This document shows positions 1,009-26,343 of a stretch of DNA of 40,849 nucleotides, in pieces. The position numbers were made by a program, and so were the translations under genes. Origin of the DNA: a virus (taxonomy: Duplodnaviria > Heunggongvirae > Uroviricota > Caudoviricetes). The stretch spans positions 1-40,849 of IMG/VR virus record IMGVR_UViG_2563366924_000005, one strand, 5' to 3'. The notes under the pieces were generated by a model. It saw nothing but the letters and a program-made list of their open reading frames with translations. It was not told the origin of the DNA and made no database searches. Each line of letters begins with the position of its first letter. Position 1 is the stretch's first letter.

Positions 1009-1083
1009 GTCCTCTTAGTTAAATGGATATAACGAGCCCCTCCTAAGGGCTAATTGCAGGTTCGATTCCTGCAGGGGACACTA
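1009..1083 (+). tRNA. argW: tRNA-Arg (anticodon CCU), argW; integration target, forms attL
   Basis: Cloverleaf readable by eye: acceptor GTCCTCT/AGGGGAC, anticodon stem AGCCC/GGGCT with loop CTCCTAA (anticodon CCT), T-arm GCAGG-TTCGATT-CCTGC, discriminator A at 1080; the three bases after it (1081-1083) read CTA, not an encoded CCA. Confidence 0.85.
1054..1069. repeat. 16-nt segment of argW T-arm (ttgcaggttcgattcc), left copy of a direct repeat; candidate att core
   Basis: Exact 16/16 match to 40614-40629 (18/19 including one mismatch to the left); lies in the tRNA 3' half next to the integrase gene. Confidence 0.6.
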
Positions 1084-1244: not shown

Positions 1245-2423
1245 ATGCTCACCGTTAAGCAGATTGAAGCAGCAAAGCCGAAAGAAAAACCATACCGCCT
1301 TCTCGATGGTAATGGCCTGTACCTTTATGTCCCTGTATCCGGGAAAAAGGTATGGCAGCTTCGCTACAAGATTGACGGTAAGGAGAAAATCCTGACTGTC
1401 GGAAAATATCCGCTTATGACTTTGCAGGAGGCAAGGGATAAAGCATGGACTGCGAGGAAAGACATCTCGGTTGGCATAGATCCGGTAAAAGCGAAAAAGG
1501 CTTCGTCTAACAACAATTCCTTTAGTGCCATTTACAAGGAATGGTACGAGCACAAGAAGCAAGTGTGGTCTGTAGGGTATGCGACTGAACTTGCCAAAAT
1601 GTTTGATGACGACATTTTACCCATCATCGGCGGTCTCGAGATTCTGGATATTGAGCCGATGCAACTGCTGGAAGTAATCCGCAGATTTGAAGATCGCGGT
1701 GCAATGGAGCGAGCCAACAAAGCCCGCAGAAGATGCGGCGAGGTTTTCCGTTACGCTATTGTCACTGGTAGGGCTAAATATAACCCGGCACCTGACCTTG
1801 CTGACGCCATGAAGGGATACCGCAAGAAAAACTTCCCGTTTCTTCCTGCAGACCAGATCCCGGCATTTAACAAAGCACTGGCAACATTTTCAGGAAGCAT
1901 CGTATCGCTCATTGCGACCAAAGTTTTACGCTACACAGCCCTAAGAACAAAAGAGCTTCGTTCCATGCTATGGAAGAACGTCGATTTTGAAAACAGGATT
2001 ATCACCATCGACGCCAGTGTGATGAAGGGACGCAAAATTCATGTGGTTCCTATGTCAGACCAGGTGGTTGAACTTCTCACTACGCTAAGCTCAATCACTA
2101 AACCAGTATCAGAGTTTGTTTTTGCCGGTCGCAACGATAAGAAGAAGCCAATCTGCGAGAACGCGGTATTGCTTGTGATCAAACAAATTGGCTATGAGGG
2201 TCTGGAAAGCGGTCACGGATTCAGGCATGAATTCAGCACGATTATGAACGAGCACGAATGGCCTGCTGATGCTATTGAAGTGCAACTGGCACATGCCAAC
2301 GGCGGATCTGTGCGCGGGATTTACAACCATGCTCGGTATCTCGATAAGCGCAGAGAAATGATGCAGTGGTGGGCGGACTGGCTTGATGAAAAGGTGGAGT
2401 GTTCCACCTTAACTATCGAATGA
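1245..2423 (+). CDS. intS: Tyrosine integrase, IntS-type (KplE1/CPS-53-like), transcribed away from argW
   Basis: ORF 1209-2423; from MLTVKQIEAAKPKEKPYRLLDGNGLYLYVPVSGKKVWQLRYKIDGKEK the protein matches my recollection of E. coli IntS; C-terminal HxxR...Y catalytic region (GHGFRHEF...RGIYNHARY); ATG at 1245 preferred, GTG at 1209 possible. Confidence 0.85.
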   Translation: MLTVKQIEAAKPKEKPYRLLDGNGLYLYVPVSGKKVWQLRYKIDGKEKILTVGKYPLMTLQEARDKAWTARKDISVGIDPVKAKKASSNNNSFSAIYKEWYEHKKQVWSVGYATELAKMFDDDILPIIGGLEILDIEPMQLLEVIRRFEDRGAMERANKARRRCGEVFRYAIVTGRAKYNPAPDLADAMKGYRKKNFPFLPADQIPAFNKALATFSGSIVSLIATKVLRYTALRTKELRSMLWKNVDFENRIITIDASVMKGRKIHVVPMSDQVVELLTTLSSITKPVSEFVFAGRNDKKKPICENAVLLVIKQIGYEGLESGHGFRHEFSTIMNEHEWPADAIEVQLAHANGGSVRGIYNHARYLDKRREMMQWWADWLDEKVECSTLTIE

Positions 2424-2492
2424 CACAAATCCTTGCAATCCAGTGCAAAGCTTTGTGTAAGAGCATCTTGTTGTTTTAATTAACAAATAAAC

Positions 2493-2519
2493 TTATTTTG
2501 ATTTTAGCAATCAAAATAA
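2493..2519. repeat. Perfect 11-bp inverted repeat (ttattttgatt / aatcaaaataa, 5-nt spacer) between convergent int and tailspike genes
   Basis: Seen directly in the AT-rich 156-bp gap between the int stop (2423) and tailspike stop (2580); possible bidirectional terminator or protein-binding site. Confidence 0.3.
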
Positions 2520-2579
2520 AATATTAACAATAATGCACAAAAAAATCACTTGCAATTTAATTGTAACATCAAATGTTCA

Positions 2580-4475
2580 TTACAATATTCTAACTTCACC
2601 GTATACGCTCAATATTTTATCAGGAACCAGATCGCTTCTACCTTTAATTTGAACATATGGCAAATCATCAGTATTTAATTCCAAATTTGTAGAAAAGAAT
2701 ACTCCACCACCACTCTGGATTGAGCTACTAAATTCAAAGAACTCACCAGACATGAATAACCCTTTCAGTCTTACACTTCCAGACTGATGATTTACAACTA
2801 TGTTCACACTTAATGTCTCAACTGAATTATGAATTGCAGATGTCTTTAGTAACAATGTTGAATTACCAAAATCTATCCACTCAAACCCATATTCACCATC
2901 AAGACCACCTGAAAATTTACCAGCATAATTACCAGTTAATATAGAGTTGACGACATTTCCGCTAACTCCATTTATTTTCTTCCTCTGGTCTATTCTGTGA
3001 TTAACTCCAAAATAACCTTCAGGAACAATTAAGTCTCTGGTACTAGACGCAACAGAGTCATAAAATTCAACCCTTACACCATGACCATAAGTGTTTTCCT
3101 TTGTTTTTAATATCCTCCCAATGTTATCAGCATTTTCAAACCTGTTACTTCCAGAAATAAATATTTCACTAGCTGGCGTATCTGCATACCCAACAAAAAA
3201 CATTGAGTCCTTAGAGATAAAATTTACATAGTTATTTTCAAGTAATGATGAAAATACATAACTACCAAAATAAACACCAACATCATCGACATTTTCGATG
3301 TATGAGTTACATAATTTGAAATCATAAACAGCGGCATTAAATTGTATGCCAACAGTGCAACCTTCAACAGAAATACCATCCATTACAAGCGATGTTACAG
3401 GCCCATCAAATCTATATTGCATTTGGGCATTTGTTGCAATCAGTCTTGTAAATTCGTTTAAATTATGCGCCCCGCTAAAAACAAATCTATCACCCAAATA
3501 TTCCTGCGGATATTCAAAAACAATATTATCCAATTTAAGGTAGTAGTTATTGTGTGAGTGAATACCAAATGATGAGCAATTGCAAAATATATTTTTAATC
3601 TCACACCCATGATGCCAGTCTTGAATCCTTAGGCAGGCTGAACTCAACCTATTATTATCTGTGCTTGATATAATAGAGAAATTTGATAATGAGATATACT
3701 TACTGTAATGTGAATCATCACTAGAACCAAAGTTGCTTACAAGCACACCGTTATCATTATAATATCCACTCTCAAAAAGAGTAATATCTGAAAGCATGTT
3801 GAATACGCAACCGCATCCATCTATAATTTTTTGCTTTGCCCTCTCAAATGTTTCATCGAAATTTTGAGGTATAATTAATGTTTTTTTTATGCCATATACC
3901 TTACCTGGAACTCCAATTATTTTTTTGTTTCCATTAAATGCCTCTTTTATTCCTGCTTGAATGTAGTCAGAGCAGTCAATATTTGATGTGTTCCCATTAA
4001 TGTCTGGCGGTATGAAATCATCAAAAGAAAGTGTTTCCCTTAATTTAATTAATGATGTCGTGCCTTTTGCATTGTTTTCACTCTGAATGAATCCTATATA
4101 TTTTGAACCATCGTTTCCAGACAATCTTTCTTCAAGCTGATCAGGGTCATACTTCAGCACATTAGGAAAATAGAATTGCTGCGCTCCATACGCATCGTAT
4201 ACAGCCATAGAATGGCCTTGCACAGTTACGAATTTGGCAATCTGTCCGTTATATACCGGATACCCGCCAGCGTTAATGATGATTGGTTGCGAAACAGGAA
4301 CGTGAGAGCCGTCTTCGTTCTCTACATAAACCTGAATCTGGTTTTCAGGATTTACCGGGTCAGTGTCAATTTTACCGATATAAATTTTGCCATTGGCTAC
4401 GGCTTTAAAAGAACGCGCCATAGTGAAGAGTTGCGAAGGCATCGATACGATCACATTGGCTGTAATGTCTGTCAT
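2580..4475 (-). CDS. Tailspike protein: P22 gp9-type N-terminal head-binding domain fused to a divergent receptor-binding/depolymerase domain
   Basis: N-terminus [47 protein letters not shown]...[15 protein letters not shown]...NVLKYDPDQ closely matches the recalled P22 tailspike N-terminus; the remaining ~500 residues are unrelated to P22 gp9 and the DNA is visibly AT-rich. Confidence 0.85.
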
Positions 4476-22160: not shown

Positions 22161-22631
22161 TTAAATGATTTGCCAGTCTTCTGCTAGAACATCAGTCTGA
22201 CTAGCCAGCCACGGTACTAATTTATCGTCCGCTGTCTTCATGCAAATGCATGGCAGCGTCACAAGGCCATTAACTCCGTCCAGGTCACACTCAAACCCCC
22301 AAGCATTCTGCTGGATAATGAACAGATATATCCCCTTACCATTCCAGCCAGCACGGGCAACTTTATTCCCCAACTTGAGCGCTTCAATGGCAAGGCCGAA
22401 ACTTAGCCCTGATACCGGACGATAAGCCTTTTCGAATACTTCTTTTGGACTCCAGCTAACGTAGCCATCAAAGCGATCGGTGTTAGGTTTTCCGCCATCA
22501 AGATATTCAACCAGATAGCCTTCATCCTCGCCGTTTTCTCCGGCAGGAAGCTGCCAGCCACGAAAATCGTTATATGCCTGTCTCGTCATCGGAAAGGCGT
22601 TAATCAGTTTTACGCCAATATGCTGGGTCAT
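22161..22631 (-). CDS. DUF2829-domain protein (Tad2-type fold) with N-terminal extension
   Basis: C-terminal half ...ALKLGNKVARAGWNGKG...VTLPCICMKTADDKLVPWLASQTDVLAEDWQII matches the DUF2829 signature as I recall it (GWNGKG ... YIxMKT...LVPWxxSQTDLLAEDWEI); preceded by a terminator after Rz. Confidence 0.6.
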   Translation of the reverse strand: MTQHIGVKLINAFPMTRQAYNDFRGWQLPAGENGEDEGYLVEYLDGGKPNTDRFDGYVSWSPKEVFEKAYRPVSGLSFGLAIEALKLGNKVARAGWNGKGIYLFIIQQNAWGFECDLDGVNGLVTLPCICMKTADDKLVPWLASQTDVLAEDWQII

Positions 22632-22709: not shown

Positions 22710-23177
22710 TTATTTCAGGCATTGCGTCCTGATGTATTCCTGCAGGTAGTTAACCTGCGCGGTTATCCTGTCGATTCCACTTCGGAGACGGTAATAATTG
22801 AGTTCAGCATCTGCTGTAAGTCTTGGGCTTTCTCCATCGCCCATGCTGCTGGCTCCGGTCGTTGACTTTGCACAGGTGGCGGCGACTTGCAGCCGCTTAC
22901 GGCCAGCAATGACATCGCTATGCAGACGCTCAATGGTTTCTTTCGCATCAGCCAGTTCTCCGGTGTATTTGGCATCCAGTGCAGCGACATCACGCTGGCG
23001 GGTCTGCATGTCTTTAATGGTGGCGGTCGCCAGGAGGAGTTTCTCAGTGGCCTTATCGCGCTGGTCTCTGTAAGTGATGGCGTTGTCGCGGTAGTGGTTC
23101 ACGAAGAAAGCCAGTGCGCCGATTAACGCCAGCACCAGCAACTGCAGCCAGTAACGCTTAACCAGTGCGCTAATCAT
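22710..23177 (-). CDS. Rz i-spanin (P22 gene 15-like)
   Basis: 155 aa, N-terminal TM anchor ([16 protein letters not shown]), coiled-coil periplasmic part; contains the embedded Rz1 reading frame; follows lysozyme. Confidence 0.75.
22763..22948 (-). CDS. Rz1 o-spanin lipoprotein, embedded in Rz in another frame
   Basis: [20 protein letters not shown] lipobox signal followed by a proline-rich segment; classic embedded Rz1 architecture. Confidence 0.7.
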
Positions 23178-23623
23178 GACAGGAACAGAGCTCGCTCTGC
23201 CTTGCGGCGATTCGTGAGCCCCGGCATCACCTTTCCGCCTGATTTATTCCAGCGCAGAAATTCATCTGCCGCGCCTTTTATATCGCCAGCATTCAGCTTT
23301 TTCAGCAGTGTAGATGTGGAAAGAGCACGCGACCCAACGTTGTAAGCGAACGACACCAGTGCGTCGAACTGGCCTTGTGTCAGCTTCACCCTGACAACTT
23401 TCAGCACGTCATTCTCATAACCAACAAGCCCTGTTTTCAGAAGCCTGTCAGCGGTTTGCTGGTCGATAGTCATACCGCGCTTTACTGGCTTTCCGTCAAC
23501 CGGATGGGTCCAGCCATAGCCGATGGTCCACGGCGCATCTCCCGTTCCGGGGTCGGGGTAAGCAGTCAGCCGACAACCTTCAAATTTTTTTATCAGAGCA
23601 ATTCCGTCAGGACTGGTTTGCAT
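23174..23623 (-). CDS. Endolysin, T4-lysozyme-type (glycoside hydrolase family 24)
   Basis: ORF 23174-23695; from [39 protein letters not shown] the sequence shows the lysozyme catalytic E...D...T motif; downstream of holin. Confidence 0.8.
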
Positions 23624-23960
23624 CGTCAACTCCCGCCTTTTTTGCTGCAAGTTTTTTAATAAGATTGCCGATCGAATCGGTGCCGATGTATCCAATAAAG
23701 ACGCTGGCTATGTAGGCGAGGTTGCTGCTCAGGCCGATAAAGTCCAGAAGGTCACGAACGAACCAGGCAATCATCGCGCACATCAGCGCATCAATTAGCG
23801 TTTTTGTTACCGCGCCGCCGTTATAGCGACCACGCAGATACGCCATGATAAAAGCCAGCATTGCACCAATACCCTGCTCCTTGGCGGCAAGTAGCGCAGC
23901 GATGAAATCTTGTTTGTATGGCAATTTTTTCTCCCTACGCCTGGCACGCGAATTGACCAT
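23607..23960 (-). CDS. Class I holin, lambda S-like
   Basis: ...[93 protein letters not shown] closely matches recalled lambda S. Confidence 0.8.
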
Positions 23961-24435
23961 GATATTTCCCCCTAAACTCTGAGATTACCAACTCAGCAAG
24001 TTCGAGATCATCGAAGTAACCCAACCAGATCTGCTTCTTATTTCTACTTCCGCAAACTCTCCATTTCCCATTCTTAACATCAAGCCTGACGCCCTTTATG
24101 GGATTCTTTCCTCCGGATGGTTTGCGTCTGTTATATTGATTTTCTGATTTGGTCGATAATCTGAGGTTTTTAATGCCATTGTTTAATGGGTTTCTATCTA
24201 AATGATCCACGTCCATTTCTGGCATGCATCCATATACATACAACCAAGCCAGCCGATGCTCTTTATAGATTTTCCCATCTATACGTATTTGCCTGTAACC
24301 AGATCCATTAATCGTTCCAGCTCTTGAGCCAACTTTAATTCTGCGATTGCTGGATTTAACCCAAGTAAAAACCCCTGAAACAGGATCATAGTGCATAAGG
24401 CTTTTCAGGACTTGCTGAGTGATTACCATTTTCAT
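23935..24435 (-). CDS. HNH homing-endonuclease-like protein (HNH plus AP2-type DNA-binding domain), copy 1
   Basis: Start MKMVITQQ with GGAGGTGA ribosome-binding site; motifs [24 protein letters not shown] and [12 protein letters not shown]; inserted between tRNA-Asn and holin; AT-rich. Confidence 0.75.
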
Positions 24436-24617
24436 AGGCCTCACCTCCGATTTTCCGGATGGTGCTGTGTGTGTTTGTAGGGGAAAGGCCGTCAGACTCT
24501 GATTGCTACATGGCATCTGAAAATGATATCTGCGGCCTGCAATAAAAAAGCCCACGGCGCGGTGGGCAATAGAGGGTAGTGCGTTGAGCTTTTGCTCTTA
24601 TGGTCCTGGTAGGTATT

Positions 24618-24692
24618 TGGCGGGACAGCGTGGACTCGAACCACGATAAGAAGGTTAACAGCCTTCCGTAATGACCTTTATACGACTGACCC
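24618..24692 (-). tRNA. tRNA-Asn-like gene (anticodon GTT) between Q and the lysis genes
   Basis: Minus-strand read GGGTCAG-TC-GTAT-AAAGGTCA-TTAC-G-GAAGG-CTGTTAA-CCTTC-TTAT-CGTGG-TTCGAGT-CCACG-CTGTCCC-G-CCA: perfect anticodon and T arms, U33, GG in D-loop, encoded CCA; one T-T mismatch each in acceptor and D stems; 4-nt variable loop. Confidence 0.5.
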
Positions 24693-24755
24693 AAATAAAA
24701 AAAGCCACCGTTGCAACTTAAGAGTCACTAACGGCAGCTTACCCTCTAATTATGG

Positions 24756-25274
24756 CTAAATGGCTAATTGCATGTCAAGGTTTTTAACAGCAACATGCTT
24801 AACTTTCTCAACACGTTTACGCATTTTGAAAGCATTTTGCATTGGTTGGTACAAAACAAATAATGACGCTTTCAGGATGTCGTCAATTTCATTTCTACAG
24901 GTTGCCAGTGAAGGTTTTCTCCATCCCTCGCCACCACGTCCACACATCTTGCGTGGCTTTGCAGTCGCGTGATAGTAGGATGCAATTGCTCGCTTAGATG
25001 AACCATGAGCGTAGTAGCTGAGGAGGATGCCAAAGGCTTTCTTGTCAATGTACATGACGGAATCGACGACCTGAGAAATCAACATTCCATCGTCATCATT
25101 ACACATTGGCCTTGTAATAACTCTTCCCGGCTCTACGCTCTCCATGAACTTCGCTATTACGCTGCTCATGCGCTTTTCCAGACGACCTGAATAAACCCAT
25201 GCGCCCCATAGTTCAAGCCATCCATTCAGCCAATCGTGCTGCTCTTTGGTGAGGTTTATTTCTCTTATGCTCAT
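24756..25274 (-). CDS. Late-gene antiterminator Q (QuuD-type)
   Basis: 172 aa; WLELWGAWV and CNDDDGMLIS motifs resemble QuuD-type Q proteins as I recall them; position just upstream of the lysis cassette and downstream of ninH/rusA. Confidence 0.65.
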   Translation of the reverse strand: MSIREINLTKEQHDWLNGWLELWGAWVYSGRLEKRMSSVIAKFMESVEPGRVITRPMCNDDDGMLISQVVDSVMYIDKKAFGILLSYYAHGSSKRAIASYYHATAKPRKMCGRGGEGWRKPSLATCRNEIDDILKASLFVLYQPMQNAFKMRKRVEKVKHVAVKNLDMQLAI

Positions 25275-25459
25275 CGTCTTCCCCTCTTGCCCTGTTTGAC
25301 CATCAGGACGCCGTTAACTATTACGTGACGCTCGCCTTTGCTGTCTCGGTTGTACTTAAGCACTGTTCCTCTTGCGCAGGAAAGCATCCTCGCCACTTCG
25401 GTCTGATTGCCTCGTGTCTGGATAAGAAGCTCTGGTATCGTTTGAATTGTGGCGTTCAT
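25271..25459 (-). CDS. ninH: NinH
   Basis: 62 aa; IQTIPELLIQTRGNQTEVARMLSCARGTVLKY..VIVNGVLMV matches recalled lambda NinH (VKTIPDMLVEAYGNQTEVARRLKCSRGTVRKY..AIVNDVLMV). Confidence 0.75.
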   Translation of the reverse strand: MNATIQTIPELLIQTRGNQTEVARMLSCARGTVLKYNRDSKGERHVIVNGVLMVKQGKRGRR

Positions 25460-25818: not shown

Positions 25819-26343
25819 TTATCCTCTCCCATGATTATGGTGATACCCCAATCGTGATTCCGCCAATTTTCTGGCATTAACGGCTAGAGATATGTCATCG
25901 TATAATCCAAGAAATATCTTTTTATTATCACTGTTTATATATGCGCCCCACTTTTTATTCTTCTTATAGTAGGCAACACCCATTACTCCAGAGCGATTAT
26001 TAATAGGCTTTTTTCTGTTCCTTGAGTTCTGTTTATCATCTACAACGCGCAAATTGCATATTCTGTTATCGCTTTTAATTCCATTTATGTGGTCAATTTC
26101 CCCATCAGGTTCTCTTCCATAAAAGGATATCCATGCGATTCTATGAGCTCGACAAACTTTTTTATTTACAGATATACGAACGTATCCTTTTTCATCTATA
26201 GAACCAGCAATCTTACCGGCATATGTTGAATTCCAGCACTCTCTTACACTTTCTCTTCTTTTGTATATAAACAAACCTGTTTCGCTATTATATTCATACA
26301 ATTCATTGATTTCTTTTTGTGTTGGATATCTTTTGCCGTTCAT
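25819..26343 (-). CDS. HNH homing-endonuclease-like protein (HNH plus AP2-type domain), copy 2
   Basis: 174 aa; GYVRISVNKKVCRAHRIAWISFYG and EIDHINGIKSDN motifs; same architecture as 23935-24435; very AT-rich; abuts rusA and the upstream gene with no spacer. Confidence 0.75.
   Translation of the reverse strand: MNGKRYPTQKEINELYEYNSETGLFIYKRRESVRECWNSTYAGKIAGSIDEKGYVRISVNKKVCRAHRIAWISFYGREPDGEIDHINGIKSDNRICNLRVVDDKQNSRNRKKPINNRSGVMGVAYYKKNKKWGAYINSDNKKIFLGLYDDISLAVNARKLAESRLGYHHNHGRG

What the first reader, a model, noticed from the sequence alone, without database searches (positions are those of the whole stretch)
23935..24435. HNH/AP2 homing-endonuclease-like gene inserted between tRNA-Asn and holin
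An AT-rich free-standing HNH gene overlaps the holin start by 26 nt. This is selfish-element cargo in a slot that is otherwise conserved in P22-like phages.
Basis: partly seen in the sequence, partly recalled or inferred. Interest (0 to 1): 0.4.

Follow-up and report, generated by a model that had tools for sequence, protein, structure and literature searches.

The report
Homing endonuclease gene in holin start
A small selfish nuclease gene has inserted into the start codon of this prophage's lysis-timing (holin) gene, taking over that gene's ribosome-binding site and supplying a replacement; it is an ordinary kind of mobile element in an unusually precise and recurrent position.

Summary
Window 24435..23935 (minus strand) encodes a 166-aa protein with an HNH_3 nuclease domain (E 8.6e-15) and a C-terminal AP2-like DNA-binding fold. 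Its catalytic residues align with those of I-HmuI.

It is a 505-nt insertion (24426..23922). HEG-less relatives with identical flanks read SD-ATG-AAA-ATG-CCA-TAC, the lambda-S-type Met-Lys-Met dual start. In the window the nuclease ORF begins with that ribosome-binding site and Met-Lys-Met. It ends with TAG + GGAGAAAAAA + TTG, which restarts a 105-aa holin. So the 26-nt "overlap" depends on an in-frame ATG that lies inside the insert.

Relatives at 57-99% protein identity sit at the same point in three holin lineages. All have stop-GGRGG-10 nt-TTG/GTG. Across 23 prophage loci the gene is 99.4-100% identical, while the flanks fall to 39% upstream and 74% in the holin. That is the signature of a mobile homing endonuclease gene.

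Cleavage, homing and the effect on lysis timing are untested. This is a new member of a known kind, of modest interest. A second HNH gene in the window (26343..25819) has captured the rusA start in the same way.

The parts
24749..24778 (-). Late promoter pR'-like site (TTGACA-18-CATAAT) at the end of the Q gene. It is the likely source of the transcript that carries the tRNA, the nuclease gene and the lysis genes.
   Evidence: 11 of 12 matches. The position corresponds to the annotated P R' of Sf6 in the 97%-identical stretch.
24618..24692 (-). tRNA-Asn (anticodon GTT)
   Evidence: ARAGORN. Rfam tRNA, 55.3 bits.
24550..24567 (-). Terminator-like GC hairpin followed by a T run, between tRNA-Asn and the nuclease gene. 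It is native: it is also present in the HEG-less relative.
   Evidence: The flank aligns with Citrobacter phage Omnitron.
24439..24464 (-). The holin's original translation-initiation region: a hairpin (CACCAUCCGGAAAAUCGGAGGUG) that contains the SD GGAGGUGAGG. It now serves the nuclease ORF.
   Evidence: Identical in the HEG-less E. coli and Omnitron alleles. Predicted hairpin (-17.2 kcal/mol, z -1.45, weak).
24427..24435 (-). ATG AAA ATG: the holin's Met-Lys-Met dual-start codons, now the first three codons of the nuclease.
   Evidence: The empty alleles read ATG AAA ATG CCA TAC. The window reads ATG AAA ATG GTA ATC.
23922..24426 (-). The 505-nt insert: the nuclease coding sequence from codon 4, its stop codon, a 10-nt SD spacer and TTG. 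The boundaries are ambiguous by 2 nt because TG is repeated at both ends.
   Evidence: Alignment with the HEG-less alleles L001 and L038.
23935..24435 (-). HNH_3/AP2 homing-endonuclease gene, 166 aa
24136..24261 (-). HNH_3 nuclease core (residues 59-100), including D77, H78, N86 and N99
   Evidence: Pfam. Alignment to I-HmuI 1u3e. Invariant columns.
23950..24099 (-). AP2-like DNA-binding domain (residues ~113-162): a three-stranded sheet plus a helix
   Evidence: Pfam AP2 is sub-threshold. AF2 model at pLDDT 92.9. Foldseek matches to AtERF1 1gcc (TMt 0.69, 1.8 A) and the TEM1 AP2 domain.
23925..23937 (-). Exit cassette: the TAG stop overlapping a new SD (UAGGGAG), plus the spacer. Exactly 10 nt lie between the stop and the holin start in every lineage.
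23607..23924 (-). Holin (lambda S type) read from TTG: 105 aa, identical to the HEG-less holin from its second Met onward
23958..23960 (-). In-frame ATG inside the nuclease 3' end (codons His-Gly, CAT GG), preceded by AGGGGG. It would give a 117-aa holin with the extension [12 protein letters not shown]. Whether it is used is unknown.
   Evidence: Gene callers use this start in all database copies.
23174..23623 (-). Endolysin (Phage_lysozyme), 149 aa from the ATG at 23623
25819..26343 (-). Second, unrelated-lineage HNH_3 gene (174 aa, 32% identical), inserted in the start of rusA in the same manner

Best explanation
This is a free-standing homing endonuclease gene (HEG) of the HNH_3 + AP2 type. 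It belongs to a lineage that targets the initiation codon of class I (lambda-S-like) holin genes of enterobacterial lambdoid prophages.

Shown by sequence comparison:
- A 505-nt element lies within the second Met codon of the holin's Met-Lys-Met dual start.
- The nuclease ORF is translated from the holin's own SD and start codons, on the Q-dependent late transcript. No promoter of its own was found.
- The element's last 13 nt (GGAGAAAAAA + TTG) directly follow the TAG stop and give the displaced holin a new SD and a non-ATG start. The holin protein is unchanged from Pro2 onward.

Inferred:
- When a HEG-carrying phage meets a HEG-less one with this holin (co-infection, or a co-resident prophage after induction), the enzyme is made late. 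Its AP2 domain recognises the intact start region, and the HNH site nicks or cuts it.
- Recombinational repair from the HEG-carrying copy then copies the element in, together with about 20 nt of adjoining holin sequence.
- The carrier is immune because the insertion itself splits the site. Window flanks are identical to those of empty alleles, so immunity does not rest on flank substitutions.
- A side effect is loss of the S107-type antiholin start and a switch of the holin to a weak TTG/GTG start, possibly coupled to termination of nuclease translation 10 nt upstream.
For: Family and integrity:
- HNH_3 at 54.5 bits.
- D77, H78 and N99 align with I-HmuI D74, H75 and N96 and are (near-)invariant in 89 homologues.
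- The AF2 model has pLDDT 92.9. Foldseek's top hit is I-HmuI (E 4.6e-4), and the C-terminal domain matches AP2/ERF domains at 1.4-2.0 A.
- Between lineages pN is 0.14-0.33 while pS is 0.72-0.99, i.e. saturated, so the protein is under purifying selection.

Insertion:
- Citrobacter phage Omnitron and 18 complete E. coli genomes hold the empty site, with flanks up to 99.6% identical.
- They read SD-ATG AAA ATG CCA TAC.
- The window holin read from TTG is identical to the HEG-less holin.

Recurrence:
- Relatives at 99, 77, 71, 61, 58 and 57% identity, plus a chimera sharing the C-terminal domain (56% overall), all lie directly 5' of a holin.
- The holins are PF05106 of 105 aa, PF05106 of 117 aa, or PF16083. 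The Q proteins and endolysins differ.
- The six full-length lineages whose junctions were read have stop + GGRGG + 10 nt + TTG/GTG + CCN.
- Empty counterparts in two further lineages have M-R-M-P or (TTG)-K-R-M-P starts.

Mobility:
- In 23 loci the HEG is 99.4-100% identical in nucleotides.
- Over the same loci the upstream 400 nt are 39-100% identical, the holin 74-100% and the lysozyme 66-100%.
- Identity begins exactly at the ATG and ends about 21 nt after the TTG.
- The exact protein variants occur in about 180 and 200 blocks of the assembly collection, mostly E. coli and Citrobacter.
- One genome holds it in two different prophages.

Not an intron: only the tRNA hits Rfam, and the ORF fills the insert.

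Specificity: relatives at 33-41% identity are not next to holins.
Against: - No enzymatic or genetic test was possible. The cleavage site, nick versus double-strand break, and homing itself are all inferred.
- In many loci the HEG, holin and lysozyme are all about 100% identical. Part of its spread is therefore ordinary exchange of the whole lysis module.
- The element is rare. None was found in 50,697 phage records or in 5,426 complete E. coli genomes. That is odd for an efficient drive, unless encounters between suitable phages are infrequent or carriage is costly.
- The target site is not defined. The idea that insertion alone gives immunity rests only on the identity of the flanks.
Confidence: 0.8

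Rival explanations
1. A passenger gene. It is an HNH gene that inserted once, is no longer mobile or no longer active as a site-specific nuclease, and is spread only by the ordinary module shuffling of lambdoid prophages together with the holin-lysozyme cassette.
For: Lambdoid genomes are mosaics. In 12 or more of the 23 loci the holin and lysozyme are as conserved as the HEG. Two prophages of one genome share a 3.9-kb block at 98.4% identity that includes it. The element is rare in curated collections.
Against: - The HEG stays 99.4-100% identical where the adjoining holin drops to 74% and the upstream leader is unrelated.
- The identity block starts at the ATG and ends about 21 nt into the holin.
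- Three holin lineages are occupied at the same codon by HEGs only 57-77% identical.
- The catalytic residues are intact and the protein is under strong purifying selection.
Confidence: 0.12
2. A phage-beneficial late function rather than a selfish element. Examples would be an HK97-gp74-like HNH that assists terminase, or a nuclease that excludes competing phages or degrades host DNA.
For: It is the first ORF of the late operon and is translated from a strong, regulated RBS. Cutting HEG-less rivals would in effect be marker exclusion.
Against: - It is dispensable: near-identical phages lack it.
- The family is HNH_3 + AP2, not the PF01844 HNH found next to terminases. One relative carries such a PF01844 gene separately (L047).
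- It occurs with P22-type, Terminase_3, Terminase_2 and lambda GpA packaging modules alike.
- Its position tracks the holin, not the terminase.
Confidence: 0.05
3. The ancestral state. The nuclease gene was originally part of the lysis cassette, and the 'empty' alleles arose by precise deletion.
For: Presence/absence alone does not give polarity.
Against: - Empty alleles carry a complete, functional-looking Met-Lys/Arg-Met dual start in three holin lineages. They are the overwhelming majority: 220 phage records match the holin region and none has the gene.
- Repeated deletions would each have had to regenerate an in-frame ATG exactly.
- The HEG's GC content (41%) differs from that of the cassette (50%).
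Confidence: 0.03

Closest known systems
I-HmuI (Bacillus phage SPO1 intron-encoded HNH endonuclease, PDB 1U3E)
   Same: It is the best structural and sequence match among solved structures. It shares the same DH...N...N catalytic layout and the same small size, with a nuclease domain followed by a DNA-binding region.
   Different: I-HmuI is encoded inside a group I intron of a DNA polymerase gene, and its C-terminal DNA-binding part is not an AP2 domain. Here there is no intron and the C-terminus is AP2-like. Identity is only 23%. That I-HmuI is a nicking enzyme is from my own knowledge; whether this enzyme nicks or cuts both strands is unknown.
HNH-AP2 homing endonucleases of phages, cyanobacteria and protists (Magnani et al. 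2004, cited in PMC10448857; 'IPA-HNH' HEGs of vibriophage ICP1)
   Same: The domain architecture is the same, N-terminal HNH plus C-terminal AP2. The genes are free-standing in phage genomes and lie at boundaries of genetic exchange, as described in PMC10448857. Here the boundary between the Q/tRNA module and the lysis module falls at the HEG.
   Different: Those described are mostly in virulent phages. tblastn finds this family in 3,399 phage records, but none above 50% identity. This lineage lives in temperate lambdoid prophages and has one fixed target, the holin start. The ICP1 genes are too divergent to hit Pfam HNH_3, whereas this one hits it strongly.
Free-standing HEGs of T4-like phages (Seg, Mob; review PMC2988022)
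   Same: These are intronless nuclease genes found between or at the ends of conserved genes. They are polymorphic in presence and spread by cleavage of the HEG-less allele with co-conversion of flanking markers.
   Different: They belong to different nuclease families (GIY-YIG for Seg, and other HNH types). From my own knowledge they usually cut at some distance from the insertion point, and immunity comes from sequence differences in the neighbouring gene. Here the flanks of occupied and empty alleles are identical, and the element sits inside a start codon.
Lambda S dual-start motif (S107 antiholin / S105 holin)
   Same: The HEG-less alleles have the same Met-Lys-Met-Pro start and an SD-containing hairpin. 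Sf6 annotates the equivalent pair as holin inhibitor and holin.
   Different: In the window the two Met codons belong to the nuclease. The holin has a single TTG start, or a new 12-residue extension from an ATG within the insert.
HK97 gp74-type HNH endonucleases next to terminase genes
   Same: Both are small HNH proteins of lambdoid-type phages expressed with the late genes.
   Different: That group belongs to a different Pfam family (PF01844) and has no AP2 domain. It lies next to the terminase and cos and is needed for packaging (my own knowledge). The gene here is dispensable and tied to the holin.

Membership tests
HNH_3 (PF13392), I-HmuI-like beta-beta-alpha-metal nucleases | Profile match above the curated threshold | tested here: met
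   54.5 bits against a cut-off of 24.8, E 8.6e-15, residues 59-100.
HNH_3 (PF13392), I-HmuI-like beta-beta-alpha-metal nucleases | Catalytic Asp-His and metal-binding Asn present | tested here: met
   D77-H78, N86 and N99 align with I-HmuI D74-H75, N83 and N96. D77 and H78 are invariant and N86 and N99 at least 90% conserved in 89 sequences. The roles of the I-HmuI residues are from my own knowledge.
HNH_3 (PF13392), I-HmuI-like beta-beta-alpha-metal nucleases | Fold resembles a solved member | tested here: met
   Foldseek's top PDB hit is 1u3e, with E 4.6e-4 and probability 1.00. TM is only 0.42, as expected for an extended two-domain protein.
HNH_3 (PF13392), I-HmuI-like beta-beta-alpha-metal nucleases | Metal-dependent DNA nicking or cleavage | not testable with these tools
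   Needs purified protein.
AP2 DNA-binding domain (PF00847) | Profile match above the curated threshold | tested here: not met
   25.1 bits against a cut-off of 33.3 (E 2.2e-5), residues 113-148.
AP2 DNA-binding domain (PF00847) | Three-stranded antiparallel sheet packed on a helix, superposable on AP2/ERF domains | tested here: met
   Model strands 116-119, 124-131 and 134-141 plus helix 144-162. AtERF1 1gcc gives TMt 0.69 and rmsd 1.8 A over 55 columns. TEM1 7et5 gives rmsd 1.4 A.
Free-standing homing endonuclease gene (mobile) | Presence/absence polymorphism at one precise site between otherwise near-identical genomes | tested here: met
   Window against Omnitron and the E. coli KCJ3K291 prophage, with flanks identical at the junction.
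Free-standing homing endonuclease gene (mobile) | The element is more conserved than its flanks across genomic backgrounds | tested here: met
   HEG 99.4-100% identical, against upstream 39-100%, holin 74-100% and lysozyme 66-100% in 23 loci.
Free-standing homing endonuclease gene (mobile) | Not inside an intron or intein | tested here: met
   There is no Rfam intron. The 505-nt insert is 492 nt of ORF plus 13 nt. It is separated from the holin ORF by a stop codon and a frame change.
Free-standing homing endonuclease gene (mobile) | The enzyme cleaves the empty allele and is copied in by repair (super-Mendelian inheritance) | not testable with these tools
   Requires cleavage assays and phage crosses.
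Terminase-associated HNH (HK97 gp74 type) | PF01844-type HNH adjacent to terminase/cos | tested here: not met
   There is no PF01844 hit. The gene lies before the holin, and it occurs with four different terminase types.
Lambda-S class I holin with dual-start regulation | PF05106 holin | tested here: met
   E 5.6e-30.
Lambda-S class I holin with dual-start regulation | Two in-frame Met codons separated by Lys/Arg at the holin N-terminus | tested here: not met
   The motif is present in empty alleles. In the window it is fused to the nuclease ORF, and the holin restarts at TTG.

The most novel reading that the evidence does not exclude
The element is more than a parasite in a neutral slot. It is a HEG lineage adapted to the holin initiation codon, and it rewires the lysis clock. 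It removes the S107-type antiholin start and imposes a weak TTG/GTG start, which is never ATG in six diverged lineages and always lies exactly 10 nt after the nuclease stop. This would couple holin synthesis to translation of the nuclease. In the window's sub-lineage it would also create a substitute antiholin: the in-frame ATG at 23960, preceded by AGGGGG, would add [12 protein letters not shown] (net charge +5) to the holin N-terminus. HEG carriage would then change lysis timing, and the non-ATG start would be maintained by selection, either for dosage compensation or to avoid rebuilding the nuclease's own target.
Probability: 0.25. Interest if true: 0.6.

Novelty: new member of a known kind. 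Interest (0 to 1): 0.4.

Why it matters
HNH-AP2 homing endonuclease genes are common in phages, so the gene itself is ordinary. Three things make this case useful.

- **A defined candidate target.** The sequence across the holin start (...GGCCTATGAAAATG|CCATACAAACAAGATTTCAT...) is a short candidate site, and natural occupied and empty alleles have identical flanks. Specificity and homing of this poorly characterised enzyme family could be tested directly in lambda/P22-type phages.
- **A natural experiment on the dual start.** Isogenic-like prophages differ only in whether the Met-Lys-Met antiholin/holin start is intact or replaced by a single TTG start.
- **A correction to annotation.** Databases call the holin of every carrier as a 117-aa protein overlapping the nuclease gene. 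The conserved protein is 105 aa, read from TTG.

The case also shows, twice in one prophage, that members of this family insert by capturing a target gene's ribosome-binding site and start codon and handing back a substitute.

Tried and rejected
- **DNA search of the insert.** blastn against 50,697 phage records found nothing. Megablast against 5,426 complete E. coli genomes found only empty sites. Carriers had to be found through the protein collections instead.
- **Species-representative genomes.** This scan gave only 4 loci, none of them a full-length close relative.
- **Group I/II intron or other RNA element.** Rfam at a permissive threshold finds only tRNA-Asn in 23500..25400.
- **A promoter for the nuclease itself.** The only strong sigma-70-like site is pR' at the end of Q.
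- **RNA structure at the new holin start.** None was found. The region folds less well than shuffled controls (z +1.42), and the retained upstream SD hairpin is only weakly supported (z -1.45).
- **Sequence search of PDB.** On its own it gave only a marginal I-HmuI hit (E 0.11). The structure prediction was needed to firm this up.
- **dN/dS.** It could not be computed for most lineage pairs because synonymous sites are saturated, so only pN and pS are reported.
- **Literature.** Six full-text searches (and reading in 35-37) found no report of a homing endonuclease gene in a holin start codon. That library is incomplete, so this is not proof of absence.
- **Selection on the ATG at 23960.** I asked whether its open frame is under selection. 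It is open in four diverged lineages and absent in two (His codon CAC). Roughly 1 in 10 would be open by chance, so this is not decisive.

Full report
**1. What is there**

On the minus strand the gene order is:
- Q antiterminator, phage-21/Sf6 type, PF06530 (25274..24756);
- a pR'-like promoter (24778..24749);
- tRNA-Asn (24692..24618);
- a terminator-like hairpin (24567..24550);
- the ORF in question (24435..23935);
- a lambda-S-type holin;
- a lysozyme;
- Rz/Rz1;
- a Tad2-like gene.

The window as a whole is a P22-like enterobacterial prophage. One E. coli assembly (GCA_000351345.1, locus L050) is 100% identical over all four segments compared.

The ORF encodes 166 aa. Pfam HNH_3 scores 54.5 bits against a cut-off of 24.8. 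AP2 scores 25.1 bits, below its cut-off of 33.3. GC content is 41.3% for the gene, 46.7% for the window and 50% for the holin.

**2. It is an intact nuclease of the I-HmuI type with an AP2-like DNA-binding domain**

- The only PDB sequence relative is I-HmuI (1u3e). In that alignment D77-H78, N86 and N99 fall on I-HmuI D74-H75, N83 and N96.
- D77 and H78 are invariant, and N86 and N99 at least 90% conserved, in an alignment of 89 homologues.
- An AlphaFold model built on that alignment is confident, with mean pLDDT 92.9.
- Foldseek's best PDB match is I-HmuI (E 4.6e-4). The C-terminal sheet-plus-helix superposes on plant AP2/ERF domains at 1.4-2.0 A.
- The stated refutation, absence of catalytic residues, fails.

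**3. Where exactly it is inserted**

Citrobacter phage Omnitron and 18 complete E. coli genomes have the same flanks without the gene.

The empty alleles read:
`...CCGGAAAATCGGAGGTGAGGCCT ATG AAA ATG CCA TAC AAA CAA GAT...`
This is a holin beginning Met-Lys-Met-Pro, the lambda S107/S105-type dual start. Sf6 annotates the equivalent pair as holin inhibitor and holin.

The window reads:
`...GGAGGTGAGGCCT ATG AAA ATG [GTA ATC ... GCG TAG GGAGAAAAAA TTG] CCA TAC AAA CAA GAT...`

The consequences are:
- The insert is 505 nt (24426..23922), with a 2-nt ambiguity at its ends.
- It is nothing but the nuclease ORF from codon 4, plus 13 nt.
- The nuclease uses the holin's SD, its SD-containing hairpin and its Met-Lys-Met codons.
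- The 13 nt that follow the TAG stop provide a new SD (UAGGGAG) and a TTG start.
- Read from that TTG, the holin is 105 aa and identical to the HEG-less holin from its second Met onward.

That ATG is part of the insert: it is formed by the His-Gly codons CAT GG of the nuclease.

**4. The same architecture recurs in diverged lineages**

The closest proteins in a 5.8-billion-sequence collection are 99, 77, 71, 61, 58 and 57% identical, together with a chimera that is 56% identical overall.

- Every one lies directly 5' of a holin. The holins are PF05106 of 105 aa, a 117-aa PF05106 subtype, or PF16083.
- The lambdoid contexts differ: three Q families, and either lysozyme or GH19 endolysin.
- In the six full-length lineages whose junctions were read, the nuclease stop (TAG, TGA or TAA) is followed by GGAGG or a similar motif. 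Exactly 10 nt separate the stop from a TTG or GTG codon, never ATG, and this is followed by the holin's Pro codon.
- Upstream, the nuclease begins with M-K-M, M-R-M or M-K-R-M behind a GGAGGTG-type SD in most lineages.
- Empty counterparts were found for two further lineages. Klebsiella phage ST405-OXA48phi1.3 has ATG CGA ATG CCC TAC. Erwinia phage vB_EhrS_49 has TTG AAA AGA ATG CCA GAT.
- Relatives at 33-41% identity are not next to holins.
- Between lineages, synonymous sites are saturated (pS 0.72-0.99) while pN is 0.14-0.33. The protein has therefore been kept functional over a long association with this site.

**5. Evidence for mobility**

- The exact protein variants P0121 and P0122 occur in about 180 and 200 blocks of the assembly collection. 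Most are E. coli, with some Citrobacter.
- In 23 sampled loci the gene is 99.4-100% identical in nucleotides.
- In the same loci the 400 nt upstream are 39-100% identical, the holin 74-100% and the lysozyme 66-100%.
- In pairwise alignments the block of identity begins exactly at the ATG and ends about 21 nt after the TTG. Beyond that point, holin codons about 8-25 carry patchy alternative sequences. This is compatible with co-conversion tracts.
- Carriers have P22-type, Terminase_3, Terminase_2 and lambda GpA terminases.
- One genome has the element in two different prophages, which share a 3.9-kb block.
- The insert contains no intron-like RNA and no promoter of its own.

**6. Most likely mechanism**

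Shown: the anatomy, the polymorphism, and conservation of the gene independent of its flanks.

Inferred:
- The enzyme is made late from pR', using the holin's translation signals.
- It recognises the intact holin start region in HEG-less phage DNA and nicks or cuts it.
- Repair from the carrier copies the element in.
- Occupied and empty alleles are identical on both sides of the insert. Immunity of the carrier must therefore come from interruption of the site, as with intron-borne enzymes, and not from flank substitutions.

Not shown: any cleavage, the exact site, or the effect on lysis.

**7. Consequences for the holin (speculative)**

The antiholin start is lost, and the holin start becomes TTG, possibly coupled to termination 10 nt upstream.

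The ATG at 23960 has a good SD-like AGGGGG 7 nt upstream. It would add [12 protein letters not shown] to the holin. By analogy with lambda S107, where one extra positive charge makes an antiholin (established knowledge), this product could act as an inhibitor.

The ATG and its open frame are present in four diverged lineages and absent in two, so the evidence is weak.

**8. Comparison with what is known**

- HNH-AP2 homing endonucleases are a recognised family. Phage nuclease genes are known to lie at recombination boundaries (PMC10448857).
- Free-standing HEGs are well described in T4-like phages (PMC2988022).
- tblastn finds the family in 3,399 phage records, but none above 50% identity to this protein. 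The insert's DNA is absent from 50,697 phage records.
- NCBI already annotates the protein as 'HNH endonuclease' in E. coli and Citrobacter.
- I found no paper describing a HEG in a holin start codon, but the library is incomplete.
- My classification is a new member of a known kind, with a noteworthy, conserved mode of insertion.

**9. Rivals**

- A now-immobile passenger spread only by module shuffling remains possible for part of the distribution. It does not explain the sharp identity boundaries or the independent occupation of three holin lineages.
- A packaging-helper or other beneficial HNH is unlikely: the family is wrong, the gene is dispensable, and its position tracks the holin.
- Ancestral presence with repeated precise deletion is unlikely.

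**10. Verdict**

Interest is modest (0.4). Confidence in the homing-endonuclease explanation is 0.8.

Noticed in passing
window 25819..26343 (-): A second HNH_3 gene (174 aa, GC about 0.35, 32% identical to the first) is also an insertion that relatives L020 and L021 lack. It takes over the SD and first two codons (ATG AAC) of rusA and hands back GGGAGAGGA-TAA-ATG. Unlike at the holin site, the first ~39 nt of rusA are densely substituted relative to the empty allele (10 of 39, against 97.5% identity further on). This could be target-site immunisation or co-conversion.
   Followed up: partly
window 22161..22631 (-): A Tad2-like (anti-Thoeris, PF11195, E 9.9e-26) gene lies directly after Rz/Rz1 in the late operon. 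The same position is occupied in relatives L015, L050 and L052.
   Followed up: no
L015 499..999 (Logan ERR3062173); L052 2080..2592: A chimeric nuclease gene. Its nuclease domain comes from a different HNH-AP2 gene, one that lies between Q and the holin HEG in L052. It is fused at the K(Y/N)GKWR motif to the AP2 domain and exit cassette of the holin HEG. The likely origin is a deletion by recombination between tandem HEGs. It is a natural swap of nuclease and DNA-binding modules.
   Followed up: partly
L047, L048 and L052, about 2080..2721: Some carriers have a third HNH_3 gene (169-170 aa) between Q and the holin HEG, in the tRNA region. The Q-to-holin interval is therefore a hot spot for this gene family.
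   Followed up: no
L047 and L048 (both from GCA_902505335.1, one contig): Two different prophages of one genome share a 3.9-kb block at 98.4% identity (rusA to Rz) that includes the HEG. Outside the block they differ: one has a lambda GpA terminase, the other a KilA-N and PF01844-HNH region.
   Followed up: partly
L018 3001..3084 (Enterobacter MAG): A copy of the HEG that is interrupted after about 84 nt by unrelated sequence. This may be an IS insertion or an assembly break.
   Followed up: no
window 23850..23900 (-), holin codons ~8-25: Among HEG carriers this short stretch exists in at least three alternative versions, while the rest of the holin is identical. It is a patchy mosaic next to the insertion site.
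   Followed up: partly
window 1009..1081 (+): A tRNA-Arg (CCT) gene lies near the window's start. It may be the host attachment-site tRNA of this prophage.
   Followed up: no
window 23607..23960 (-) and all database copies: Gene callers annotate the holin of every HEG carrier as 117 aa starting at the ATG inside the nuclease gene. The homologous start is the TTG/GTG 36 nt downstream. This is likely a systematic mis-annotation.
   Followed up: yes
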